Shown here: piece after piece, positions 906 to 64,000 of the stretch
How the letters are laid out: every line of letters starts with the position of its first letter
Position numbering within the stretch: the stretch's first letter is position 1
From: Lytechinus pictus
Taxonomy: Eukaryota
Assembly: GCF_037042905.1 (NCBI RefSeq)
Contig: NC_087251.1
Coordinates: forward strand, 4,032,001-4,096,000
Direction: 5' to 3'
DNA: 64,000 bases
The notes under the pieces: model-generated
The model's input: only the letters and a program-made list of their open reading frames with translations
Told to the model about the DNA's origin: nothing
The model's database searches: none
Made by a program: the position numbers and the translations under genes

Positions 906-1901
906 AGGTGTCATTCATGTAACAGTGGACTATGTCAAACATTTTCCTGGTAGTTTCATGTGGGTACCTTAGCTTGCCAGCTGATCTAGCTCAACATTGT
1001 TGGGGGGGGGGGGTCAGGATTTTGGGAGCATCTGGCGGGGGTGCCCTACCACTGAAAGTGTCAGTTAAGTGTCATTCATGTACAAGTGAACTATGCCAAA
1101 CATTTTCCTGTTGGTTTCATGTGGTTACCTTGTCAGCTAATCTAGCTCAATATTGGGGGGGGGGGGGGCGTCTGCCGGGGGCGTCTCACCACTTAAAGTG
1201 TCAGTTATGAATTATTCATGTACAAGTAAACTATGCCAAACATTTTCCTGTTGGTTTCAAGTGGTTACCTTTCCAGCTGATCTAGCTCAATTTGGGGCCC
1301 CCAATTGGGGGCGTCTGCCGGGGGTGCCCCACCACTTTAAGTGTCAGTTAAGTATCATTCATGTACAAGTGAACTATGCCGAACATTTTCCTGTTCGTTT
1401 CAAGTGGTTACCTTTCCAGCTGATCTAGCTCAATTTGGGAGGGGGCGGGGTTTTAGGGGCGTCTGCCGGGGGCGCCCCACCACTTAAAGTGTCAGTTAAG
1501 TGTCATTCATATACAAGTGAGCTATGCCGAACATTATCCTGTTGGTTTCAAATGGTTACCTTTCCAGCTGATCTAGCTCAATTTGGGGCCCCCAATTGGG
1601 GGCGTCTGCCGGGGGTGCCCCACCACTTAAAGTGTCAGTTAAGTATCATTCATGTACAAGTGAACTATGCCGAACATTTTCCTGTTGGTTTCAGGTGGTT
1701 ACCTTTCCAGCTGATCTAGCTCAATTTTGGGGCCTCTTTTTAGGGCCCCTACGGCCACATCCACCACTTAGGACACGGCAGACGCCCCATTCATTGCATT
1801 GTGTGATATGGGGAATCACGTCATTAACATGAAAATTGTCTACCTTTTCAGCTATGCTGACCCCTCCTGGCTCCTGCTCTAATATAGCTGAGGTGGAAAA
1901 A
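900..1901. repeat. Tandem array of about 6 x ~140-bp units, probably inside a Helentron/HINE-like element
   Basis: Unit acttaaagtgtcagttaagtgtcattcatgtacaagtgaactatgccgaacattttcctgttggtttc...gctgatctagctcaatttgggg repeats over 900-1730. It is followed by the terminal inverted pair ctaccttttcagctat/atagctgaggtggaaaaa (1840-1901). Confidence 0.75.
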
Positions 1902-2733: not shown

Positions 2734-4277
2734 CCCAGGACCAAAATCCAGTTGAAACCAATTAGAGCAAAACCAATTGAAACCAGTTGGCCAACTGGTT
2801 TCAATAGGGAAATTGGAACAACTGGAACCAATTGAAACCAGTCGCCAACTGGTTCCAGTTTAAAACCAATTGGGCAACTGGAACCAGTTGGCAATTGGTT
2901 TCAGTTCCAGTTGAAACTAATTAAGCAACCAGTTGGCAACTGGTTTCAATTGGTTCCAGTTGTTCCAATTTCCCTATTAAAACCAGTTGAATCAAATTGG
3001 AGGTAACTGGTTTCAATTGGTTCCAGTTGAAACCAATTGGAGGCAACTGGTTTCAACTGGAACCAGTTGAAACTAATTGGTTTCCAACTGGATCCAATTG
3101 GAACTTCTAGTTGGAATGACTTAATTAGTTACAAATTAATTAGATTTTGCACTAACTATGCCAACAAAGAAGCAGTGCTATATGTCTATAATACCAATGT
3201 AAAGGGCATTGATAAATAGACTTTCATAATGTATATATACATGAAAGATCTTCAAATATATGTATTTGTATTTGATGTAATTTGGTAACAGTTAGTGGTG
3301 TACTAATTATCTTATAATCTGTTTTAATTATAATCTATAACATTTATGAACATGGTTTTCACTGCTAAGTATTCTAAACACTTATCTGAAACAAGTATGG
3401 TACTTGAAATAGAAAAGAATTAAATAGATACATTTTAAATGATGATGAATCACATAAAACATTAATCTGTGCACACTGGCATATAATATGCAAATTAACT
3501 GGTTTCAATTGGAACCAGTTGGGTAACTGGAAAATTTCCAATTGGAAACCAATTGGAAGTCATTTCCAGTTACCCAACTGGATCCAGTTAGGATTTCCAG
3601 TTACCCAACTGGTTCCAGTTAGGATTTCCAGTTACCCAACTGGTTCCAGTTAGGATTTCCAGTTACCCAACTGGTTCCAGTTAGGATTTCCAGTTACCCA
3701 ACTGGTTCCAGTTAGAAATTATTTCCAGTTGGAAGTCATTTCCAGTTACCCAACTGGTTCCAGTTAGAAATCATTTCCAGTTGGAAGTCATTTCCAGTTA
3801 CCCAACTGGTTACAGTTAGGATTTCCAGTTACCCAACTGGTTCCAGTTAGAAATCATTTCCAGTTGGAAGTCATTTCCAGTTACCCAACTGGTTCCAGTT
3901 AGGATTTCCAGTTACCCAACTGGTTCCAGTTAGGATTTCCAGTTACCCAACTGGTTCCAGTTAGAAATCATTTCCAGTTGGAAGTCATTTCCAGTTACCC
4001 AACTGGTTCCAGTTAGGATTTCCAGTTACCCAACTGGTTCCAGTTAGAAATCATTTCCAGTTGGAAGTCATTTCCAGTTACCCAACTGGTTCCAGTTAGG
4101 ATTTCCAGTTGCCCAACTGGTTTCAATTGGTTTAAACTGGAAATTGTTATATTCCAGTTAAAACCAATTGAAACCAGTTGAAACCAATTGAAACCAATTG
4201 AAACCAGTTGAAACCAATTGAAACCAATTGAAACCAGTTGGAAATCCAACTGGTTTCAATTGGATTTTGGTCCTGGG
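2734..4277. mobile_element. Non-autonomous CACTA/EnSpm-like (CMC) element with subterminal repeats and an internal minisatellite
   Basis: TIR cccaggaccaaaatcca.ttgaaacca / tggtttcaattggattttggtcctggg; 2-bp TSD CA; dense CCAGTT/AACTGG/CAATTG motifs; 31-bp unit ggatttccagttacccaactggttccagtta at about 3560-4120. Superfamily is inferred from termini and TSD length. Confidence 0.75.
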
Positions 4278-20228: not shown

Positions 20229-23200
20229 TCAGTCATCCTAGAAGAGATGGAAATCAAATAAAATACTTGATTTATTATGTCAGGAATAGGGTCTGATCAT
20301 TCAATGATAGACAACATCTGCAAAAAAAAAATTGATATATGCAATAGCATTCTAGCCTCCCTATCTTTCCTGCACATGATATTAAAAACGAATCAAATTG
20401 TCTTTGTATAATCCATTCACCAAAATCATTAAATGTCCATACTTTAAGTCAATCAGACCAAATCATTGATTTAATTTATTATTGTACAATGCCTACTTGC
20501 TTTACAATTTACCCAACACCCAGTTATCTAAACTCCAAAAGCCTCAAAACGCTGCAGCACGCATGGTCACCCTATCTAAAAAACATGTTCATACCGCACC
20601 CATTCTGAAATCTCTACATTGGTTAAAGATCAACGATCACATCGTCTTCAAAATCCTTCTACTTCTATTCCATGCAATTATTACAATGCAATATTAATCT
20701 CATTATCAAATACACTCCTGTCAGGTCTCTACTTTCATCCAACTCTGGTTCCCTAGTTATTCCCAAATCTATTAAAACATGGGGGCACAGGTTTTTGCTC
20801 ACGCTGGCCAGCCCATTGCATGCACTTAGTAATTGCAGACGCGCAGGTTTACTGGCTAAATGTGCATTGTCATTGCAGATCAGATGCACATTTTAGGGAC
20901 TTTTGCTTTCAAAAATTTGTCTCTTATTTTTATAGATTAAACTAGGAACAAGTGGAGCGCCTCTTGCTGTCTCACCTGCATCGCGCGATTCAATATAGCA
21001 GCAGTGCTGACTTTGAAAACTACTATAAAATAATTATTCAAAAAAACACCATTCATATAATGATAAAATACTACATTCATTGACAATAAATGACATTTGA
21101 CCTTGACCATGCGACCTAAAACTTGTCAGTGATACTTGATTACCCCTATATCCACATTTTATAAACTGTATCTCTAAACTTTGAAAGTTATGACAGCAAT
21201 CTAATAATTACTTCCAAAATGGCCAAAGTTCAATGACATTAAATGACCTTTGACTTCGGTCATGTGACCTGAAACTCGCATGAGATGTTCAGTGATACTT
21301 GATTACTCTTATGTCCAAGTTTTATGAACTAGATCCATACACTTTCAGAATTATGATGGTTATTTAACAAATACCCCCAACATGGCCAAAGTCCATTGAC
21401 CTTTGACTTTGGTCATGTGACCTGAAACTCGCACAGGATGTTCAGTGATGCTTGATTACTCTTATGTCCAAGTTCTATTAACTAGACCAATACACTTACA
21501 GAGTTATGTTGTTAATTCTACAAATTATACCCCCACCATGGCCAAAGTTCATTGATCTTAAATGACCTTTGACCTTGATCATGTGACCTGAAACTCGCAC
21601 AGGATGTTCAGTGATACTTGATTACTCTTGTGTCCAAATTTTATGAATCAGATCGATAAACTATCAAAGTTACGATGGTAATTCAACAGATCCCCCCTAC
21701 ATGGCCAAAGTTCATAGACCTTTGACCTTAATCATGTGACCTGACATTCACACAGGATATTTAGTGATACTTGATTACTCTTATGTCCAAGTTTTATGAA
21801 CTAGACCAATAAACTTTCAAAGTTATGATGGTAATTCAACAAATACCCCCAACTTGGCCAAAGTTCATTGACCTTAAATGACCTTTGACCTTGGTCATGT
21901 GACTTTAAACTCCGGCAGGATGTTCAGTAATACTTGATTAACATTATGTCCAAGTTTCATGAACTAGGTCCATATACTTTCTAAGTTACGATGGTAATTC
22001 AACAGATCCCCCCAACATGGCCAAAGTTCATAGACCTTTGACCTTGGTCATGTGACCTGATATTCACACAGGATGTTTAGTGATACTTGATTACTCTTAT
22101 ATCCAAGTTTTATGAACTAGACCAATAAACTTTCAAAGTTATGACGGTAATTCAACAAATACCCCCAACTTGGCCAAAGTTCATTGACCTTACATGACCT
22201 TTGACCTTGGTCATGTGACTTTAAACTCCGGCAGGATGTTCAGGAATACTTGATTAACATTATGTCCAAGTTTCATGAACTAGGTCTATATACTTTCTAA
22301 GTTATGATGTCATTTCAAAAACTTAACCTTAGGTTAAGATTTTGATGTTGATTCCCCCAACATGGTCTAAGTTCATTGACCCCAAATGATCTTTGGCCTT
22401 GGTCATGTGACCTGAAACTCAGGCAGGATGTTCAGTAATACTTGATTAAGCTTATGTCCAAGTTTCATGAACTTGGTCCATATACTTTTTAAGTTATGTC
22501 ATTTCAAAAACTTAACCTTCAGTTAAGATTTGGTGTTGACGCCACCGTCGCCTATAGTCTCACTCTGCTATGCAGGTGAGACAAAAGCTTGATTATTGTT
22601 TGTATTTTCGCTAACTTCGAAGGCATTGTACAACACAAATAGCGAATATTCTTATTCGTGCAATGGCGGAGGTTTCGCATTCGGTGAAAGAAATTAACAA
22701 TCTTTCTATCACCTCATGCGAAATCGTATTCATGCCTATTCGCTATTTGTATACTATAAAGCAACATTAAAGGTACCATTCTCATTTGATATTCAAAACT
22801 GATTTCACTCAAACTGAATTGTATATTAGGGTGAATAATGGAATCACCAAAGGGTAATCCAGTTAGTAAAATATTGTTATGTAACATTGATAACTCTGAG
22901 AAATAATGTCCCTAATTGCTCATGATGTTGATTTTCACAAATTCTCCAATTTCATTCACCTCAACAAAGAATAAAAAATCTTGAATCAGTGCAAATTACA
23001 AAATTTATTGACTTTTGCTGAAAATTTCAATAAATTTTACTGAAATTATGCAAAGATCCTTCAATTTAACTAAACACAACATCAAAAGTAAGTTCCCCCT
23101 CAAGAACCCCAATCAAATTGTCAGGTGTAACAAATCATTTAAGTTGAAACCAAGCATGGGATATAGCTAGGGTTGTTAGAAAGTGTTTTTTTTTCACAAA

Positions 23201-26200
23201 TTTGCTACATCCATGACTTAACGGCTTTATTAGCACAACATGAACAAAAAAATGACACTTCAAAGACAGCAAATCTGCGTTTTAATGATTTTTTTTGTGA
23301 AAATTACTGTAATGCTTGCTTTCACGGCTTAAGAATCACAAATTAAAGACCATATAAGTAATTTTCAAATTTACAAGAGTGATTTAAAACATTTCAGTTC
23401 ATTTTCAATGTGCCATCTTGTCACATCCCTTTTCATTCAAAGTCATGCTTTGGACACAAAGGGGTGAGCAGCATGAGGAATACTGTGTTCAACCAATCAC
23501 AGAGTTTGGTGGTGGAAGCCGGAATAGCTACAACGACCAAGACACCGCTCATCATTAATGGACACCTGAATGCCAACAGATACGTGGATGAAATCCTGCA
23601 TCCACATGTCGTACCAGTCGCCGCTGCCATTGGTGATGACTTTGAACTGATGGATGACAACGCTCGCCCACATCGAGCAAGAGCGGGATGCGTTCTTGGC
23701 ACATGAGGGTATCAAAGGATGGTGTGGCCCGTCAACTCACCTGACCTTAACCCACTTGAACATCTGTAGGACCAGCTAAAGCGAGCTGTATGTGCACGCA
23801 TTAATGCCAACACCATCCTTGCTGACCTGGCCCAGATGTTGGAAGAAGAATAGAATGCCATTCCCCAGCAAAGAGCCACAAGACTCGTGTACGCCATGAG
23901 GTGAAGGGGCCAAGAAGTCATAGAAAAACGTGGCGGCTACACACATTATTAAACTGTATACTCTCTGATAAAGAATAAGTCAATAAAGCAAAGATTTTGC
24001 TGTTTTTGAAAATGCGTCATTTTCTGTTGGTGTTGTGCTCATTCAGTCGTTAGGTCACGGATATCTCTAATTTTCGAGAATATGATTCCTAATAACCCTA
24101 GCAATATCCCATGCTTGGTTTCAACTTGAATAATTTGTTACAATGGCAGATTTGATGGGGTTCTTTAGAGGGGAACTTGCTTTTGATGTTGTAATGCAAA
24201 AGCTGCCTCACAGTAAGCTTAGTGAATTTGATCTCTTGCAATAAACTCACCCATTCATCATCCCCTGCTCCTTCATTCTCTTCCTGTCCTGGTTTAGGGT
24301 TGGGTGGGTCATGTGACTTGACACTCATAATCTTGTCTGTCCAGGATTCTCCTAACTGACCTGATCCAGCCATGTTGGTTATCTCCTTCGTCTTCGTATC
24401 CAACTTCCCTACAGAATCTTAGTCATTATGTGAGTAAGAAAAGAAAATAATTATTGGTCTATTATGGAAACTAATATCATTCTACTTCCAATCTGTTTGG
24501 GCAATAAGTGTTCAAAGAAAAGTCATCATTAACCATCTCTTACATTATAAATAGGTATTAATTGAAGCATCAGATCTTTTTGTAAGCCCTACTGAATAGT
24601 TACACTGCAAAACATACACATTAATGTAAGATCCACTTATGTTTGATTTTATCTTTCAATCCTGCAACAATCATTCCAGTAACGTTGGTAACTTGATTAG
24701 AAAGTAATCCCAAATGGATGCACTTGTTTGATTTTTGAGGTTACGAGATGCATATCGAATGTTCATTGTCTGTAAGGTTATAGCAATGAATAGCAAACTA
24801 AATATGCCATATTGAATAATTTGTATATTCATACTATATACTATACAGATTCGATGAATACTTAATTTCATAATACATAAAAATACATTAAAAAAAGAAA
24901 TAAATAATTTTATATAATAAAATACAAAAGAACAAGTGGGGATATGACATCATCAGTTTGCTGATTGAATATTCATGAAGACATGCCTAGAAGTACTGTT
25001 TCACCGGAATAATGCAAATCTTTAAAATGCCGTAACTTTGTTATTCCTTGTCTGATTTTGATCAAATTTTCAGTGTTTTGTTTGTCTGATTTTTCTTAAT
25101 GTGTTCATATCAAATTATTTTTAGCCTGGAGTATCCCTTTAAAGGTGTCAAAACACTGAAATACTGAAAAAAGGATATATATTTCGCCAGGAAAGCTATG
25201 TGTTACGGTGAAATTTTTGAGGGTATAAAAAAAAGGACTAAAATGCTTTATAAAGGATGTACTTTTGGCCCAACACTACGTCTTGGGGTTTTGAGCGAGG
25301 TGTGGTGGTACTAAAGGTAAAGCCGACATCCGTGACATAACAATTAACATATTGCTGTACAGGGGGTCAATTCAGGGAATAGTTGTCAAGGGTACCATTT
25401 TGTTTCCAATACTTGTTAAGGGTAGGGTTTCACTTGGCAATACTTGTTAAGGGGTGCATTTTAAGAATATGGAAAATACTTGTTTAAGGGTGCTTTTAAG
25501 AACCCCATGGTTGCCCTGGTATCCACTCGTCAATGGAAGTCCCCCCCCCCTCGGGAATTTGTCTGTCTCTGCATCCAGAATTTGAGAATGACAATATGGA
25601 TAGCATATCATGAAAATATAGAAATAGAAATGAAATCAATCTGAAATCTATAGGAGATAAAATTACTGAACCAGATTCTTACAAATGAAAGGTCCATCTC
25701 CTTTAGTCCTGAGTAAGATGCTATCATCATCTTCAAAATCCATATCCTTTAGTTCAAGCTCCGTCATCCAGAATGCTAAGCATCCATCAGGGGTGTGTCT
25801 TTGGGTCAGAGTTGTTAGAGATGGTTTGTTGACCAGTGTAGAGAGCTGGGATTGTGTAAGGCGGTCAGTCTGTCCTTTGGCTTCTACCTCTTTAAAAGCA
25901 TATGGAGTGAAATTTGGTGTCAACATTTGATTCTAGCTGGTATACAGAAAATAATATTACTAGAATGGCTTAAATAAGATTAAAGTTTACTTCGAATGGA
26001 TAGTCTAGGGGAATCCCATGGTTTAAAGTTGGTTATTGGTATGTAAGACAGTTCTATACAATGCATCAACAATTACGGCAAGAAAGGGAAAACCATATCC
26101 ATATCCCCAAAAAATAAATAAATCTTCACAATACCATAGAATAGTATTACTAGCATAGCCGGGCACTTAGGAATGACAACTAGAACAATATTTTTAAATC

Positions 26201-28407
26201 ATTTAAAACATAGGCAGGAGGAAAGAGAAAGAAGAGATAGACAGAGGGATGGGGAGGGGAAAAAAGAGTAAGTGATAAAAATCAGGAAGGTTGTAGAGAA
26301 GAATGTGGTAGGTAAAGCCAATGGCAAGATGAGGACGATCAGGATATACAACGGAAGAAAACTGAGTAAAGAGAGAAGGAATAATAAAAAAAAAAGAGAG
26401 AGCTACCATTAACTTACTATATGACGACATAAGATATCCAGTATTGACCTTTTGAGTAGCATCCATATTGGGTTCAATCTCCTCTCCATTGCTGTTGAAT
26501 TGTCTTCTATGTGCAATGCTTACCCTCACATGTAATACAAAGTATCGACTCTGAAAATAAAAACAAATTCATCCTAGTTCAATGAAAAACTCCCTTATTA
26601 ATTCATATTTCTCATCATCAGTTCCTTCAACACTGGATTTGAGTTGGATTTTTCTGTGCTATTTGCAAAAGAAATTAAACAATACGCTAATTGTTTTGGT
26701 ACCATAGTATCAGGCATTTTTTTTTTTTTTTATATTAGTTCAATTATCACTACCTTATGTTATTAAGACACTGAGTTATTACTAAAAAAAGTTTATCAAC
26801 CTACAGTTAGGAGTATGACACTAATTTAAACTTACATCTCAAACTCAGTACTTACTTTGTTATGTTTAGAGTCTGTGATAACATGCCTAGACCTTGCTTT
26901 GATTGTTCCTTTCAATACAGCTCCAGATCCACTGCAAGTTAAACAAAGCAAATATTAATTATTTTCTTTATCAACTATAGCTTTTATTTTTACTTTTAAG
27001 TTTGTGTGGATCTTGATAATATTAATCTTCAAAGTTTTGATTCTTTATAAACAAGTGGAGCACCCCTGGCAGTCTCGCCTGCATTACGCTATTCTATATA
27101 GCAGCAGTGCCGACTATGAAAACAAAAAATAAGTATTCACCAAAAAAATTCATATACTGATATAATACTATTTTCATTGATTGTAAATGACATTTGACCT
27201 TGATCATGTGACCCAACACTTGTAAGTGATACTTGATTACCCCTATGTCCATATTTCATAAACTATATCCATAAACTTTCAGTTATTATGGCAATTCAAC
27301 AATTACCCCAAACATGGCCGAAGTCAATTGACCTTAAATAACCTTTGACATCGGTCATGTGACCTGAAACTCGCACAGGATGTTCAGTGATACTTGATTA
27401 CTCTTATGTCCAAGTTTTATGAGCTAGATCCATAAACTATATTGGTAATTCAACAAATACCCCGACTTGGCCAAAGATTTAATTTGATGTTGACGCCGAA
27501 GTCGCAAAAGCGGCGCCTATAGTCTCACTCTGCTATGAAGGCGTGACCAAAATGGAGTCCGAGTCTATCAGAAAACACAAGCTGTGGCTAAAGATGCAGT
27601 TTTTATGGCAAAGGCGCACTCTGTGTGTGGAACGATTCCTATTCAATTTTTTTCAACAGAGGCTGCAGTAAATCTCTAAATGCAGAGAAAACCAACAACT
27701 TTGGAATTTTTGAGTTATAATTCGCTTTAATTTCATTTTATCCTATAATAATTTGAATATATTTTAGAAATTGAGGCACAGGAAATACTATTTTTTGCAT
27801 GATAAATCGAGTGCGTAGCTTTTTAGGACCCCTTACATCGGGCGGCGAAATCAAGAGGTGTTCGGAAAACACGGCGGGATTTTCGAATGAGTGAGTTTTT
27901 CTGTATTTTCTTCTTGGTTAACGATCTTTAGAATGTTTGCCACAAATTATTGAAAGATAATTTGTTGAAATATTAAAATTGGGATACTTTTTATTGTTTG
28001 AAAACAAAGTGCGTAGCTTTAGGTCCCCCCATCATACAAAATTACAAGTGTGAGTGCTGTCTGCCTAGTATTACACGGACGAGTCCTGGGCTCCGGCCCA
28101 CAAAGCTGGGTTAGCTGAGTGAGTGAAGTCAACACATACCTGTACTAATGTCTTTTAATCACAGGAATAATTGACCAACATTATTCGATTTATATGGGAC
28201 TAAATCTGAGAGAGCTAGTCTAAACTCTAATTTGATGTCGATCAGTCGATCGTCTGAACCTTGTTGTACGGTAAATTAAATGTTTATTGCTGTTGTGGAA
28301 CATTACCATGATTACCTTTGAAACTGTTGTGGTTCCCAGATTCCAGACCAAGTCTGATTCTGTACTGGAACTGACTGAAGTGGTTTGTCATCATAAATGC
28401 GAGACAT
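20229..28407 (-). CDS. ARPIN: Arpin (Arp2/3 complex inhibitor), 6 coding exons, 227 aa
   Basis: Exons (5'->3') 28407-28316, 26931-26856, 26550-26418, 25889-25683, 24417-24251, 20237-20229 (684 nt), in frame. Translation MSRIYDDKPLQSVPVQ...HRRQFNSNGEEIEPNMDATQKVNTGYLMSSYKVEAKGQTDRL...AFWM...RTKGDGPF...SWTDKIM...GAGDDEWDD* ends in the acidic tail with a subterminal Trp typical of Arpin. Confidence 0.95.
20482..20800 (+). mobile_element. Decayed L2/CR1-group LINE ORF2 C-terminal fragment
   Basis: LLYNLPNTQLSKLQKPQNAAARMVT...HTAPILKSLHWLKINDHIVFKILLL resembles the post-RT QNAAAR...L.LHWL motif of L2-type LINEs. Confidence 0.75.
20947..22586 (-). mobile_element. Helentron-associated (HINE/DINE-like) element with an internal ~120-bp tandem array
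   Basis: Subterminal inverted repeats gtctcacctgcat / atgcaggtgagac; extra short IR gtctcactctgc; (gcc/gtc)n microsatellite; about 11 tandem units; inserted in an A/T run with no TSD. Confidence 0.8.
22628..22755. repeat. Small inverted-repeat element (MITE remnant)
   Basis: acaaatagcgaata ... tattcgctatttgt. Confidence 0.45.
23206..24064 (+). mobile_element. Degenerate, internally deleted Tc1-family transposon with a pseudogenised DDE transposase fragment (about 23500-23953)
   Basis: Imperfect ~65-bp TIRs. Translation across stops and frameshifts: GHLNANRYVDEIL...LMDDNARPHRAR...WPVNSPDLNPLEHL*DQLKR...KRGGYTHY*. Confidence 0.88.
27050..27552 (-). mobile_element. HINE-like element, short copy
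   Basis: Same termini (acaagtggagc..ctggcagtctcgcctgcat ... gcggcgcctatagtctcactctgctatg) and about 2 tandem units. Confidence 0.78.
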
Positions 28408-29615: not shown

Positions 29616-31793
29616 GATAATGGCTATCTGTTACCAAGTCATCACATTTCAGTTGATGATGGACAAAAATAATACATGTAATTGCTTTTGACGCTTATCC
29701 AATTTTATCATGCATGTCTCTTTTTTCCTTAGGTGTCTACTCTTTGTATGTTGTGTGCCAGTTGCTACAAACAAAGTGATTTACTGAAGATTGAACCACA
29801 GATATTACACACTTTGGAATACAGTCTCCTTTTCCCCACCGCTATTGATTTTCTGCCTCTTTTTTTCACCCTTGCTGATATTGAGGATGAGACGGTAATC
29901 TCATGGCATCTTTTAAACATTGAATTTTTTCTTTTGGCTGCACTGGACTCATTGACTGTTCATTGCTCTTTTTTTTCCATTTCATTGTGGTTTTTTTCTT
30001 TATCATATATATAAAAAAGTTCAGTATTGAGCAGGTACTAATGAGAAAAAGGGAATACTAAATTAATGAACATTAATGTAGAATTAATCAAGCTTGTAAA
30101 ATAGTTGGTTTCATCATTTCTTCCATATAAAGGAAATAAAATATGGATTCCTACTTGCCCATTATAGTTGAACATAATTGAAATTAATTGCTTTGTAAGT
30201 TCTGGTAATTGTTGATATATATAGTTTGTCTTTTCTTCTTTTCTTGTTGATCTAAAGCTGGTCTTCATGTGTAACTACCAGTGGATCTTACCCTACCATT
30301 GCTCCATTCCATGGACTCCCACCCATCGATTTGGGCTGCTGCTGCCATCTTTTTATCCCTCACAATTCGAAGATTCCATCACCTATCTAACAATGAGCAG
30401 AATAATCAATTCAGAGTGAATAATTGTGGAGAGACTGTATGGAGTTTCCACCTGCAGACAGTATATTTTCACATTCTCAATAATAAAGTTTAGGTTAGTG
30501 TAAATATTTCTAAATATACATTTTTTGTGTGAAATTTAGCTTCTACTAAGTTAAATATCATTCAGTGAACTTCACTCATATTACAACATTTTGAGAATCA
30601 TGTGAATTCTCTTATGTATTTTTTTTTCTTTGTTGGCGATGTCATCTTTCTAATGTTCACCAATCATTCTTTTTTTTTCATGAGTTAGTGGCACTTTCAT
30701 CAAAGTAATCACTTATTTGTTTTTGTTTTGTTCACAATTTAAATTCAGTAGAATAGTTTACATAGAGCATTATCCAATTATTCTGTTCATGTTTTGTTTT
30801 CAGTAGATTAGTTTATGTTGCCAATAAATATTCTTGTACAAGAAAATTTCATTGTTTGTATTTTTATTCTTCAGAAAGAATACAATTATAAGCACCTATG
30901 GCCATACTTTGACTGGTATGTCCATTTTAAGCCCATCTGGCATGAAGGGCTAGATGAGCTCTCCCCATGGCGTGGTATCAACATGATTCTTCATTTCATG
31001 TCCGATTTCCATTCTGTTAATTCAACTGTTCAAAACATTGGAGAGGATGAAAAGTAAAGTTTATATATCTTATACACTTAGCCTTTAATCTTTAATCAAA
31101 ATTATAGATTGAAGACCGACCCAAGATATGCATGTACCATTAATTGAGGATTTGAGGGTAGAAATCCCCAAAATGAAACTATTAAAGGCACCAAAACAGG
31201 AAAAAGAGGGAAAAGGGATGAGAAAAGAAAGAGCATCAAAAGAGCTATTGGTTGTGTGAGATTAGTAAATGATCACCTCACCTATCAAACTTCCCTCGTG
31301 CCATCACTGACCAAAGCCACTATTTCTAACCCCCCCCCCTCCAAATGATTTGATGAATGGTGCAATATACATGTATCTATCATTTTGAATAAATTAAAAA
31401 ATGATAAAGGAATGCCTGAATGTTATGTCCCAAAACAAAAATGAAACTGATATAATCATGTATCTTTTATCATAACTCGGATCTACAGCTTTTTATTATT
31501 CAAACTTCATGCATGAGGGAATAAGAAATAAGCGCTGAATTTAGAGAGGTCACCAAAAGATAATTTGATGGGCGATATCTAAATTTCAATTTCCTGAACA
31601 GTTCAATTTATGCCATTTAATTTGACACATCAATAAAGAGAATGAATGGGCAATAGCAAAGTTTATTTTATTTGAAAACTAGAAATTTGACGCGTCAAAA
31701 GGACACAGATGCCCCCGCTTAACGCGATCATAAATTCATTCAATATGATTGAAATTAATATCGTGCAGAAACCAATATGCATAATTATAATGA

Positions 31794-33106
31794 AACAAGC
31801 CTCTGGCAGTCTCGCCTGCATTACGCAATTTAATATAGCAGCAGTGCTAACTTTGAAAACTACTATAAAATAATTATTCACAAAAAGATCATTCATATAA
31901 TGACATAATACCACGTTCATTGACCATAAATGACATTTGAACGGAGACTTAAGACTGTCAACTACACCCATGTCCACATTTCATTCACTCTATGCATAAA
32001 CTTTCAAAGTTATGATGGCACTTCAACAATTACCCCAACATGGCCTAAGTTTATTGACCTTAACTGACCTTTGACTTGGTTTTGTGACCTGAAACTCACA
32101 GGGGATGTTCAGTGATGCTTGATTACTCTTATATCCCAAGTTTTATGAACTAGATCCATAAACTTCAGAGTTAGGATGGTAATTCAACAAATACCCCCAA
32201 CACGGCCAAAGTTCATTGACCTTTAATGACCTTTGACCATGGTCATGTGACCTGAAACTCGTACAGGATGTTCAGTGATACTTGATTACTCTTATGTCCA
32301 AGTTTTATGAACTAGATCCATAAACTTTCAGAGTTAGGATGGTAATTTAACATATACCCCCAACACGGCCAAAGTTCATTGACCTTAAATGACCATTGAC
32401 CATGGTCATGTGACCTGAAACTCGCACAGGATATTCAGTGGTACTTGATTAACCTAATTTCCAAGTTTCATGAACTAAATCCATAAATTTTCAAAGTTAT
32501 GATGGTAATTCAACAAATACCCCCAACTTGGCCAAAGTTCATTGACCCTAAATGACCTTTGACCTTGGTCATGTGACCTGAAACTCAGGCAGGATGTTCA
32601 CTAATACTTGATTAACCTTATGTCCAAGTTTCATGGACTAGATCCATAAATTTTCAAAGTTATGATAGTAATTCAACAAATACCCCCAACTTGACCAAAG
32701 TTCATTGACCCTAAATGACATTTGACCTTGGTCACGTGACCTGAAACTCGAGCAGGATGTTCACTTATACTTGATTAACCTTATGCCCAAGTTTCATAAA
32801 CTAGGTCCATATACTTTCTAAGTTATGATGTCATTTCAAAAACTTAACCTTCGGTTAAGATTTTGAAAATAATTTCCCCAACATGGTCTAAGTTCATTGA
32901 CCCTAAATGACCTTTGACCTTGGTCATGCGACCTGAAACTCAGGCAGGATGTTCAGTAATACTTGATTAACCTTATGTCTAAGTTTCATGAACTAGGTCC
33001 ATATACTTTCTAAGTTATGATGTCATTTCAAAAACTTAACCTTAGGTTAAGATTTGATGTTTACGCCGCCGTCGCCGTCGGAAAAGCGGCGCCTATAGAG
33101 ACAAAA
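31794..33106 (-). mobile_element. HINE-like element with ~120-bp tandem array
   Basis: Same family as 20947-22586; about 8 units; terminal hairpin partly deleted (ctatag|agacaaaa). Confidence 0.8.
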
Positions 33107-33437
33107 ATTATACCTTTTCGCATATATAATGAGCTGTGGACTCCGAATTGGAACTTAGCCTGTATTTTGGTGTCATCTACCTACACACCAATTTTTAAAA
33201 TCCATTAAATATTTTTCGAGTTATTGCGCGGAAACCAACTCGCATATTTAATGAGCTGTGACCTTTGACCTGCGGACTCCAAATTTGAACTTAGCCGGTA
33301 TTTTGGTGTCATCTACCTACACACCAATTTTTAAAATCCATTTAATATTTTTCGAGTTATTGCACAGAAACCAAGTGGGGGGACGGACGGAAGGACAGGA
33401 GCAACGCTTAAATGCCTTCCTCTGCAGGGGTATAAAA
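33107..33437 (-). mobile_element. Fragment of a different HINE-like family abutting the previous element
   Basis: Two ~125-bp tandem units (gagctgtg...tttttcgagttattgc..gaaaccaa), (ggac)n microsatellite, terminal atgccttcctctgcaggggtataaaaa. Confidence 0.6.
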
Positions 33438-33964
33438 ATGCTTGTATTCCATAATTTTACAAATCCAAGAAGCATTAATTACAGGATAGTCTGTAACAAC
33501 AGCAAACCGAGATAAAATTTTCATTGTGACATGTCCTTTTGGGGGTAATTACCAAAACTTAAAATAAGCTTCACCACTGTTTTTGTTTATGATAAATCAT
33601 GTCTTCTATCAGTGGCAACTATATGAAATACATTTGTTTCATGAAATTTATGAATGCAAATTGTATTTCAAATAATCATAATTTTGCAATATTTTTTCTT
33701 GAGGTGTCATCCTAAAAGGAAAAAAATGATTAATGTTATTTTCTTTTAAATTCAGATACTGCTGGCCAACTTTTGGTAGCCTCTTTCAAATTGTTTCCTT
33801 ACTCATTTGAAGTGTTTCATATCATATTGAAGTTGCCTAAAGTGGAAGAGGATATAAGCTTTCCAAGTATGAAATAAGTTTTATTGTAATTAAGTTATGA
33901 TAAGCAAACAAGTATAAATTGATTTTCTCATTTTTTACCGGAGGGGGGGGGGGGGGACACTATA

Positions 33965-36570: not shown

Positions 36571-64000
<27,430 letters not shown>

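What the first reader, a model, noticed from the sequence alone, without database searches (positions are those of the whole stretch)
20947..22586. Mobile tandem arrays packed with perfect nuclear-receptor response elements
Seen: each ~120-bp unit carries aAGTTCAtTGACCTtaaaTGACCTtTGACCTTGGTCAtgTGACYT (e.g. 21861-21905). That is six RGKTCA-type half-sites in about 45 bp, arranged as IR1, DR4, a perfect DR1 (AGGTCAaAGGTCA, 21879-21891), an everted pair and IR2. Dozens of such clusters lie in the six copies of this family in the window. Known: DR1 binds RXR/COUP-TF/HNF4/TR2-4; DR4 binds TR/LXR; IR1 binds FXR/EcR-type receptors. Inference: the element may spread multimerised nuclear-receptor platforms (enhancer, silencer or factor sink), or exploit a host receptor for its own amplification.
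Basis: partly seen in the sequence, partly recalled or inferred. Interest (0 to 1): 0.7.

Follow-up and report, generated by a model that had tools for sequence, protein, structure and literature searches.

The report
Urchin transposon carrying receptor-type DNA box
This is a very common non-coding jumping element of a sea urchin, of a known rolling-circle type, whose 153/163-base internal repeat carries a cluster of nuclear-receptor-type DNA words that related repeats also keep, likely because a host protein docking there helps the element spread, although no binding has been shown.

Summary
The motif is real, but overstated. At 21861-21905 there are four strict RGKTCA half-sites (IR1, DR4, perfect DR1). 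The 'everted pair' and 'IR2' need mismatched sites. The unit is 153/163 bp, not about 120 bp. Only 6 of 23 units keep IR1+DR4+DR1.

The host is a sea urchin. The array is the central repeat of a high-copy non-autonomous Helentron (HINE/HLE2; DINE-1/pearl/Cg_HINE type), with subterminal inverted repeats, A/T-run ends and no flush target duplication.

Half-site columns vary about half as much as the rest of the unit (p 0.01-0.2 depending on the test). A second HINE family in the window shares the box although its backbone does not align. Repeats in metagenome DNA share a three-box skeleton. Against a receptor-specific design: the two other boxes are equally conserved and do not look like receptor sites; oyster HINEs change or lack the geometry; and extra half-sites in the metagenome repeats were no more conserved than backbone.

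Best reading: an inherited protein-docking box kept for the element's own spread, likely bound by an orphan nuclear receptor (about 0.4). The scan reported this before, twice in this genome and once in a mollusc.

The parts
20947..22586 (-). Copy A of a non-autonomous Helentron-type element (HINE/HLE2), family 1; canonical 5' end at 22586
22549..22586 (-). Canonical 5' end: T-run, subterminal inverted repeat (22567-22583) and nested inverted repeat forming a hairpin (-9.6 kcal/mol as DNA)
   Evidence: (I11)
20947..20984 (-). Canonical 3' end: second subterminal repeat (20968-20984), weak stem-loop, terminal CTTGTT
21076..22540 (+). Central array: one degenerate first unit plus 8 full units, 153/163/166 bp alternating (316-bp higher-order period), last units 191-192 bp
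21861..21905 (+). Box 1 in unit A5: four strict half-sites (IR1, DR4, perfect DR1 at 21879-21891) plus two one-mismatch sites
21950..21957 (+). Box 2 (CCAAGTTT), AARTTT 73 nt after the DR1 start; as conserved as the half-sites
21983..21989 (+). Box 3 (consensus AAGTTAT; one mismatch in this unit), 31 nt after box 2
27050..27551 (-). Family 1 copy B (short)
31794..33106 (-). Family 1 copy C, nested in a family 3 HINE
37975..38862 (-). Family 1 copy D, in an MCM8 intron
39547..39916 (-). Family 1 copy E, lacking the AACAAG end, in an MCM8 intron
62174..63220 (-). Family 1 copy F, in an MCM8 intron
49728..51195 (-). Family 2 HINE: same subterminal repeats, 152/154-bp unit sharing the short form of box 1 (8 perfect DR1) and boxes 2/3 at the same offsets, backbone not alignable to family 1
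31677..33438 (-). Family 3 HINE (split by copy C): different ends, GGAC microsatellite, one perfect DR1 at 33259

Best explanation
The array is the central repeat of a non-coding, high-copy Helentron-type element, and its cluster of AGGTCA-type words is one of three inherited boxes in the repeat that is likely kept because a host orphan nuclear receptor docking there would help the element get copied. Shown: the element's ends, the repeat structure, lower variability of the box, and the same box at the same distance from boxes 2 and 3 in families whose other letters do not align. From established knowledge: such elements are moved in trans by an autonomous Helentron's Rep/helicase (PMC4067079, PMC11417382, passages). 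A perfect AGGTCA-n-AGGTCA is a DR-type response element (PMC1785376, abstract); that RXR, COUP-TF, TR2/4 and HNF4 read DR1 is recalled. Inferred: a receptor present in germ line or early embryo binds the multimerised sites and keeps copies accessible or brings them together, so box-bearing copies found more daughters. Slippage between the TGACCT words adds or removes half-sites (the 153- and 163-bp forms differ by one 10-bp step that holds a half-site). What is kept is therefore half-site density, not one DR/IR geometry, and a specific ligand response (thyroid, ecdysone/FXR type) is unlikely.
For: HINE anatomy: 17-nt subterminal inverted repeat, 94%; 5' hairpin of -9.6 to -11.1 kcal/mol in 3 of 3 ends folded; shared ends in 5 copies; no flush flank duplication in 5 of 5. 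High copy: contig depth 10^5-6x10^6 on the element against about 30-200 on most unique flank bins in 3 DNA runs (not a copy number). Family 1, 23 units: mismatch 0.068 in 36 half-site columns against 0.125 in 115 others (p=0.012; 4 of 150 mask shifts as low). Genome-wide contigs: 0 of 18 positions in the three inner TGACCT sites vary at 9% or more, against 23 of 84 others (p=0.006, subset chosen after the fact). The one common change in a canonical box-1 site inside that interval is TGACCT to TGACCC (62%), which still fits RGKTCA. Family 2: 1 of 24 half-site columns variable against 29 of 110 (p=0.011). Families 1 and 2 share 27 of 28 aligned letters over box 1, while the family 1 backbone finds nothing in the family 2 unit (score 13; 482 of 500 shuffles as high). 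Metagenome DNA: about 1800 stretches hold two DR1 words 148-178 apart. The 120 fetched fall into 45 backbone clusters. Boxes 2+3 follow the DR1 at the same offsets in 6.2 of 45 weighted clusters against 0.02 in shuffles (0 of 300). The HINE microsatellite lies downstream on the same strand in 43 of 120 loci against 4-6 in each other arrangement. Oyster Cg_HINE cluster CL6 also carries a TGACCT cluster.
Against: No binding, chromatin or transposition data. All six reader sites together: 3 of 25 against 20 of 77, p=0.12. Tree-based counts give only p=0.02-0.22, with no difference between internal and terminal branches, so selection during amplification cannot be told from selection after insertion. 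Boxes 2 and 3 are as conserved (0.054, 0.070 against 0.135) and are not receptor-like. An 18-nt backbone stretch is also invariant. In metagenome repeats, half-sites outside the search seeds were no better kept than backbone (0.189 against about 0.20; 6 of 20 clusters below the neutral expectation). The perfect DR1 word occurs once in 3.35 million characters of oyster HINE arrays. The 4 rows seen of the most abundant oyster cluster, CL1, show no such cluster, so HINEs can spread without it. One-mismatch neighbours favour RGKTCA only weakly: TGACCC 18.7 tops the transitions, but CGACCT is 14.3 and TGACAT 10.5 exceeds TGAACT 7.0. The DR1 and the period in the metagenome set are there by construction. 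Only 26 of 120 loci have a neighbour unit at least 70% identical.
Confidence: 0.42

Rival explanations
1. All three boxes are recognised by the element's own machinery (Rep/helicase, iteron-like short repeats) or meet a structural need of rolling-circle copying; the likeness to receptor sites is coincidence.
For: Boxes 2 and 3 are equally conserved and sit at a fixed 31-nt spacing in families 1 and 2 and at the peak in metagenome clusters. Half-sites are mostly direct repeats of one polarity (50 of 55). Conserved segments in core repeats of such elements have been linked to transposase-related turnover (PMC3879986, passages).
Against: HINE ends, not central repeats, are what autonomous and non-autonomous partners share (PMC4067079, PMC11417382, passages). 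Related flanks carry unrelated repeats (PMC7492417 part 3). The word is the exact receptor consensus, and its one common variant is a tolerated one.
Confidence: 0.25
2. The box is incidental: one ancestral TGACCT word (possibly from CpG decay, as for Alu DR2 sites) was multiplied by slippage and carried along by descent, with no selection on it.
For: 10-bp slippage form seen directly. Geometry differs among families. Cross-taxon pair test negative. CGACCT is a common neighbour word. Alu DR2 sites arose largely by CpG deamination (PMC1785376, abstract). Only 6 of 23 units are fully intact.
Against: The box survives nearly letter for letter between families whose backbone no longer aligns, and it is less variable in both window families. 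Dropping CpG-prone columns barely changes the family 1 contrast.
Confidence: 0.2
3. The copies work for the host as dispersed receptor-responsive enhancers, silencers or factor sinks, and host selection keeps the sites.
For: Precedents: Caenorhabditis Helitrons supply clustered heat-shock elements bound by HSF-1 (PMC6927752, abstract start and passages); Alu DR2 sites recruit RAR (PMC1785376, abstract). Terminal-branch changes are also somewhat fewer at half-sites (0.94 against 1.28 per column, p=0.06).
Against: Copies here are 78-90% identical in their unique part and most units are eroded. Neighbours are housekeeping-type genes (MCM8, V-ATPase D). Retention across unrelated hosts is more simply explained at the element level.
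Confidence: 0.13

Closest known systems
Cg_HINE elements of Crassostrea gigas, especially Cg_HINE_6/cluster CL6 (PMC7492417; parts 1-4 of 7 read, supplement 2 searched)
   Same: Subterminal inverted repeats with nested inverted repeat, T-rich insertion without duplication, short arrays of 140-180-bp central repeats in fixed orientation, related flanks with unrelated repeats; CL6 units carry several TGACCT/AGGTCA words.
   Different: Sea urchin host; DR1/IR1/DR4 geometry, where oyster CL6 has DR0 and other spacings; the parts read do not discuss receptor-type words.
DINE-1 / HINE non-autonomous Helentrons, HLE2 group (PMC4067079, PMC11417382; passages)
   Same: End structure, TT target, no coding capacity, variable central repeats; sea-urchin DINE-1-like elements (Tsp, cited there) and Helentron proteins are on record.
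   Different: No receptor-site box described in the passages seen. Identity to Tsp or to any Repbase family could not be tested.
DTC84 and pearl elements of bivalves (PMC3879986; passages)
   Same: About 156-bp core repeats, truncated first unit, position-specific last-unit variants, segments of reduced variability.
   Different: Their conserved landmark is a palindrome or microsatellite-like motif, not a half-site cluster.
Caenorhabditis Helitrons carrying clustered heat-shock elements (PMC6927752; abstract start, passages)
   Same: Works-like model: a rolling-circle transposon spreading dense clusters of a host factor's site.
   Different: There binding and gene control are shown by ChIP and RNA data; here nothing is shown; different factor.
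Alu-borne DR2/DR4 response elements (PMC1785376; abstract)
   Same: A transposon spreading RGKTCA direct repeats genome-wide.
   Different: Retrotransposon, single site per copy, made by CpG decay after insertion; here the sites are in the family consensus and multimerised.

Membership tests
HINE / non-autonomous HLE2 (Helentron) | Subterminal inverted repeats of about 11-17 nt, one 2-4 nt from the 5' end | tested here: met
   17 nt, 94%, 20968-20984 / 22567-22583, 3 nt from the T-run end
HINE / non-autonomous HLE2 (Helentron) | Short inverted repeat next to the 5' subterminal repeat (DINE-1 type) | tested here: met
   Hairpins of -9.6, -11.1, -10.1 kcal/mol in copies A, F and family 2
HINE / non-autonomous HLE2 (Helentron) | Stem-loop/palindrome after the 3' subterminal repeat | tested here: inconclusive
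   Only weak folds at the 3' ends of A and F (-4.6, -3.8); clearer in family 2 (-8.1) and family 3
HINE / non-autonomous HLE2 (Helentron) | T-run ends, TT target, no target-site duplication | tested here: met
   A-runs on + strand at the right end of all copies; longest flank match 2-4 nt in 4 of 5 copies, and a 7-nt AT-rich match not flush with the junction in copy C. No empty site was seen, so exact target letters are not fixed.
HINE / non-autonomous HLE2 (Helentron) | No coding capacity; central tandem repeats; microsatellite next to the 5' module | tested here: met
   Only a 62-aa stop-to-stop frame overlaps copy A; arrays; short GAC/GCC runs in copy F and family 2, reduced in copy A
HINE / non-autonomous HLE2 (Helentron) | Autonomous RepHel partner with the same ends in the genome | not testable with these tools
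   No whole genome is held
Canonical Helitron (HLE1) | 5' TC, 3' hairpin plus CTRR, A-T target | tested here: not met
   Ends are T-run/subterminal repeat and CTTGTT; definitions
MITE (cut-and-paste) | Terminal inverted repeats plus target-site duplication | tested here: not met
   Repeats are subterminal and asymmetric; no flush duplication
Nuclear-receptor response element array | Consensus RGKTCA half-sites at canonical spacing | tested here: met
   DR1 in 10, IR1 in 12, DR4 in 10 of 23 units; IR2 in 0 of 23, and no ER1 in the window
Nuclear-receptor response element array | Half-sites under constraint relative to the rest of the unit | tested here: inconclusive
   For: subset; family 2. 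Weak or against: all six; metagenome clusters
Nuclear-receptor response element array | Receptor binding and transcriptional effect | not testable with these tools
   No binding or chromatin data available

The most novel reading that the evidence does not exclude
Central repeats of Helentron-type elements across marine animals are an ancient three-box cassette whose first box is a landing pad for host orphan nuclear receptors; rolling-circle transposons use these receptors to be copied in the germ line, and in doing so have seeded tens of thousands of multimerised receptor sites through urchin and other invertebrate genomes.
Probability: 0.3. Interest if true: 0.75.

Novelty: new variant of a known kind. 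Interest (0 to 1): 0.4.

Why it matters
The element type is well known, and transposons spreading factor sites is an established theme. What I did not find in print is a receptor-type box as a conserved part of HINE central repeats (ten searches; open-access library only, Repbase notes not covered). If receptors do bind, it would give a testable answer to why these non-coding central repeats hold conserved segments, a question left open in PMC3879986. It would name a host cofactor for Helentron spread. It would also mean that a large share of perfect DR1 sites in an urchin genome is transposon-borne (19 of 19 in this window), which matters for motif scans and gene-network work in a classic developmental model.

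Tried and rejected
Whole-genome unit alignment: not possible, no genome held; replaced by contig laying. That table under-reports linked variants and the outer 30 nt at each end, so only 32222-32323 was scored. Empty-site search around copy B: no joint skipping the element among the 15 of 267 joints shown; a contig of run X6 spans the left junction. Expression: no RNA holder listed among indexed runs. RNA reads of X21 cover the repeat equally on both strands, as they do a neighbouring exon, so nothing can be said about an element transcript. An early reading that sites decay neutrally after insertion (singletons 0.53 against 0.63 per column, shared variants 4 against 37) was not upheld by tree-based counts. 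Automatic end detection in metagenome loci was insensitive: it found 1 of 7 and 2 of 7 window elements, and only 3 convincing loci (L013, L077, L117). No composition-matched control pattern could be run on the metagenome collection (single scan used). Three-box pattern in viral contigs: 0 hits. Rfam on the element: 0. Scan look-ups by sequence and nearby place: nothing. ALT-telomere precedent (COUP-TF2/TR4 on variant repeats, PMC3518223, outline and section 10): variant repeats did not suffice for recombination copying, so it is only a loose analogy. The target-duplication check for families 2 and 3 used left ends about 7-10 nt off and was dropped. The mask on the family 2 unit failed, so the family 1 backbone was compared with the whole family 2 unit, which is the stricter test. 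Oyster supplement sequences were only counted by motif, not aligned. Per-cluster counts for all 13 oyster clusters were not obtained (rows seen: CL1, CL6, CL9).

Full report
Observation. The quoted letters are present at 21861-21905. They hold four strict RGKTCA half-sites: AGTTCA at 21862 and TGACCT at 21869, 21879 and 21886, which make an IR1, a DR4 and a perfect DR1. The enrichment is far beyond chance: 19 perfect DR1 in the window, all on one strand, against none in 20 Markov simulations, and 18.6 half-sites per kb in the six copies against 1.95 outside families 1 and 2. The unit is 153, 163 or 166 bp inside and 191-192 bp at the end, not about 120 bp. The 153 and 163 forms differ by one 10-bp step that holds a half-site. 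Of 23 full units, 10 keep the DR1, 12 the IR1, 10 the DR4 and 6 all three.

Host and setting. Exons in the window match sea-urchin MCM8 (92% to the Strongylocentrotus purpuratus cluster) and V-ATPase D (82% to the Diadema cluster). MCM8 runs on the minus strand from 63375 to 36574; copies D, E, F and family 2 lie in its introns. Copies A, B and C lie between the 3' ends of the two genes.

What the element is. Five copies share a left end starting AACAAG, and all six end in an A-run after a short inverted repeat. Copy A has a 17-nt subterminal inverted repeat. Read on the minus strand, it begins with a T-run, the subterminal repeat and a nested hairpin (-9.6 kcal/mol; -11.1 in copy F), and ends with the second repeat, a weak stem-loop and CTTGTT. 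No flush target duplication is seen in 5 of 5 copies with both ends, and there is no coding frame beyond 62 residues. These are the features given for HINE/DINE-1 elements, non-autonomous Helentrons of the HLE2 group (PMC4067079 passages; PMC11417382 passages), and for the oyster Cg_HINE elements with 140-180-bp central repeats (PMC7492417 parts 1-4 of 7). Summed contig depth on copy B is 10^5 to 6x10^6 against about 30-200 on most unique flank bins in three DNA runs. That is not a copy number, but it shows a very abundant family. The autonomous partner could not be sought.

Is the box constrained? For: in 23 units, mismatch is 0.068 at 36 half-site columns against 0.125 at 115 others (p=0.012; 4 of 150 mask shifts as low). 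In genome-wide contigs laid on one unit, none of 18 positions of the three inner TGACCT words varies at 9% or more, against 23 of 84 others (p=0.006, subset chosen afterwards). The one common change in a canonical box-1 site inside the scored interval is TGACCT to TGACCC, which still fits the consensus. In family 2, 1 of 24 half-site columns varies against 29 of 110 (p=0.011). Tree-based counts give p=0.02-0.22 and no internal/terminal contrast. Two other boxes, CCAAGTTT and AAGTTAT, are as conserved (0.054 and 0.070 against 0.135).

Relatives. Family 2 (49728-51195) has the same subterminal repeats and matches box 1 at 27 of 28 aligned letters, while the family 1 backbone finds nothing in its unit. 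Yet boxes 2 and 3 sit at the same offsets (73/104 against 74/105 from the DR1). A third HINE family, split by copy C, also carries a DR1. A scan for two DR1 words 148-178 apart found about 1800 stretches in metagenomes, of which 120 were fetched. These fall into 45 backbone clusters, and none aligns to the family 1 backbone. Their hosts are unknown; animal origin is inferred. The DR1 and the period are there by construction, and only 26 of 120 have a neighbour unit at least 70% identical. Three features were not selected for. First, 2.9 extra half-sites per unit against 0.59 expected in 19 cluster representatives, 50 of 55 in the same polarity (some are short-period minisatellites that inflate the count). 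Second, a HINE-type microsatellite downstream in 43 of 120 loci against 4-6 in each other arrangement. Third, boxes 2 and 3 at matching offsets in 6.2 of 45 weighted clusters against 0.02 in shuffles, with a 31-nt spacing peak (offset windows set after seeing the data, and the test was prompted by note e1-9850203). The units are therefore most likely old homologues with a three-box skeleton. However, extra half-sites were no better kept between neighbouring units than backbone (0.189 against about 0.20; 6 of 20 clusters below the neutral expectation; misalignment in slippage-prone clusters may add to this). One-mismatch neighbours favour receptor-tolerated changes only weakly. In the oyster supplement, cluster CL6 carries a TGACCT cluster with DR0 and other spacings, the CL9 rows seen a single TGACCTTG per unit, the four CL1 rows seen no cluster, and the perfect DR1 word occurs once in 3.35 million characters.

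How it most likely works. Shown: a mobile non-coding element with a multimerised, moderately constrained, widely shared half-site box. Established: trans-mobilisation by a Helentron Rep/helicase; DR-type RGKTCA repeats are receptor sites; which receptors read DR1 or DR0 is recalled. Inferred (about 0.4): a host orphan receptor present in germ line or early embryo docks on the box and makes copies better templates, so the box is kept at the level of the element, while slippage reshuffles the spacing. This predicts promiscuous half-site readers (COUP-TF, TR2/4, GCNF or NR5A types, recalled) and not a ligand-specific DR4 or IR1 switch. Rivals: recognition by the element's own enzyme or a structural need (0.25), incidental inheritance (0.2), host co-option (0.13).

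Comparison and novelty. The element is a member of the HINE/HLE2 kind by every end feature that could be tested; the 3' stem-loop is weak and the partner untested. It may work like the Caenorhabditis Helitrons that carry clustered heat-shock elements (PMC6927752, passages) or Alu-borne DR2 sites (PMC1785376, abstract), but there binding is shown. Ten literature searches turned up no description of receptor-type boxes in HINE repeats. Conserved segments of unknown role are noted for DTC84 and pearl (PMC3879986, passages), and the 'conserved boxes' of PMC8268682 are element ends or adjoining segments (passages). Subscription papers, Repbase notes and bioRxiv supplements were not visible. The scan itself reached much the same reading before: twice in this genome and once in a mollusc. 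These are unchecked notes, not independent support.

Verdict. Observation partly confirmed; interpretation partly supported; new variant of a known kind; interest 0.4.

Noticed in passing
window 20947-63220: All 8 HINE-type elements found (6 of family 1, families 2 and 3) point the same way, the sense of MCM8 in their canonical orientation; about 0.008 if independent and random.
   Followed up: no
window 31677-33438: Copy C is nested inside a different HINE (family 3) whose subterminal repeat resembles that of metagenome loci L013, L077 and L117.
   Followed up: partly
window 38862-38870: Copy D ends about 2 nt from a likely splice donor of an MCM8 exon on the minus strand.
   Followed up: no
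window 21853-21867: The letters leading into the first half-site (GGCCAAAGTTCA) resemble an HNF4-type DR1 on the opposite strand (motif recalled); terminal units change it. A further TGAACT half-site lies just after box 2 and is polymorphic.
   Followed up: partly
window 26413-26568 (-): Exon-like frame covered by RNA reads, between MCM8 and V-ATPase D; an unidentified third gene may host copies A-C.
   Followed up: no
window 20470-20697 (+) and 23383-23979: Frames that look like the tail of a LINE reverse transcriptase and a Tc1-type transposase fragment flank copy A (resemblance recalled, not tested).
   Followed up: no
window 27606-28123: Another high-copy repeat directly right of copy B.
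   Followed up: no
window 1022-1734, 2981-4249, 40721-41054, 51983-52574: Other tandem arrays without a half-site cluster: 143-bp, 10/30/31-bp CCAGTT-rich, (ACT)n, 170-bp.
   Followed up: no
L001: Telomere-like TAACCC repeats grade directly into the TGACCT cluster, a possible origin of the word.
   Followed up: no
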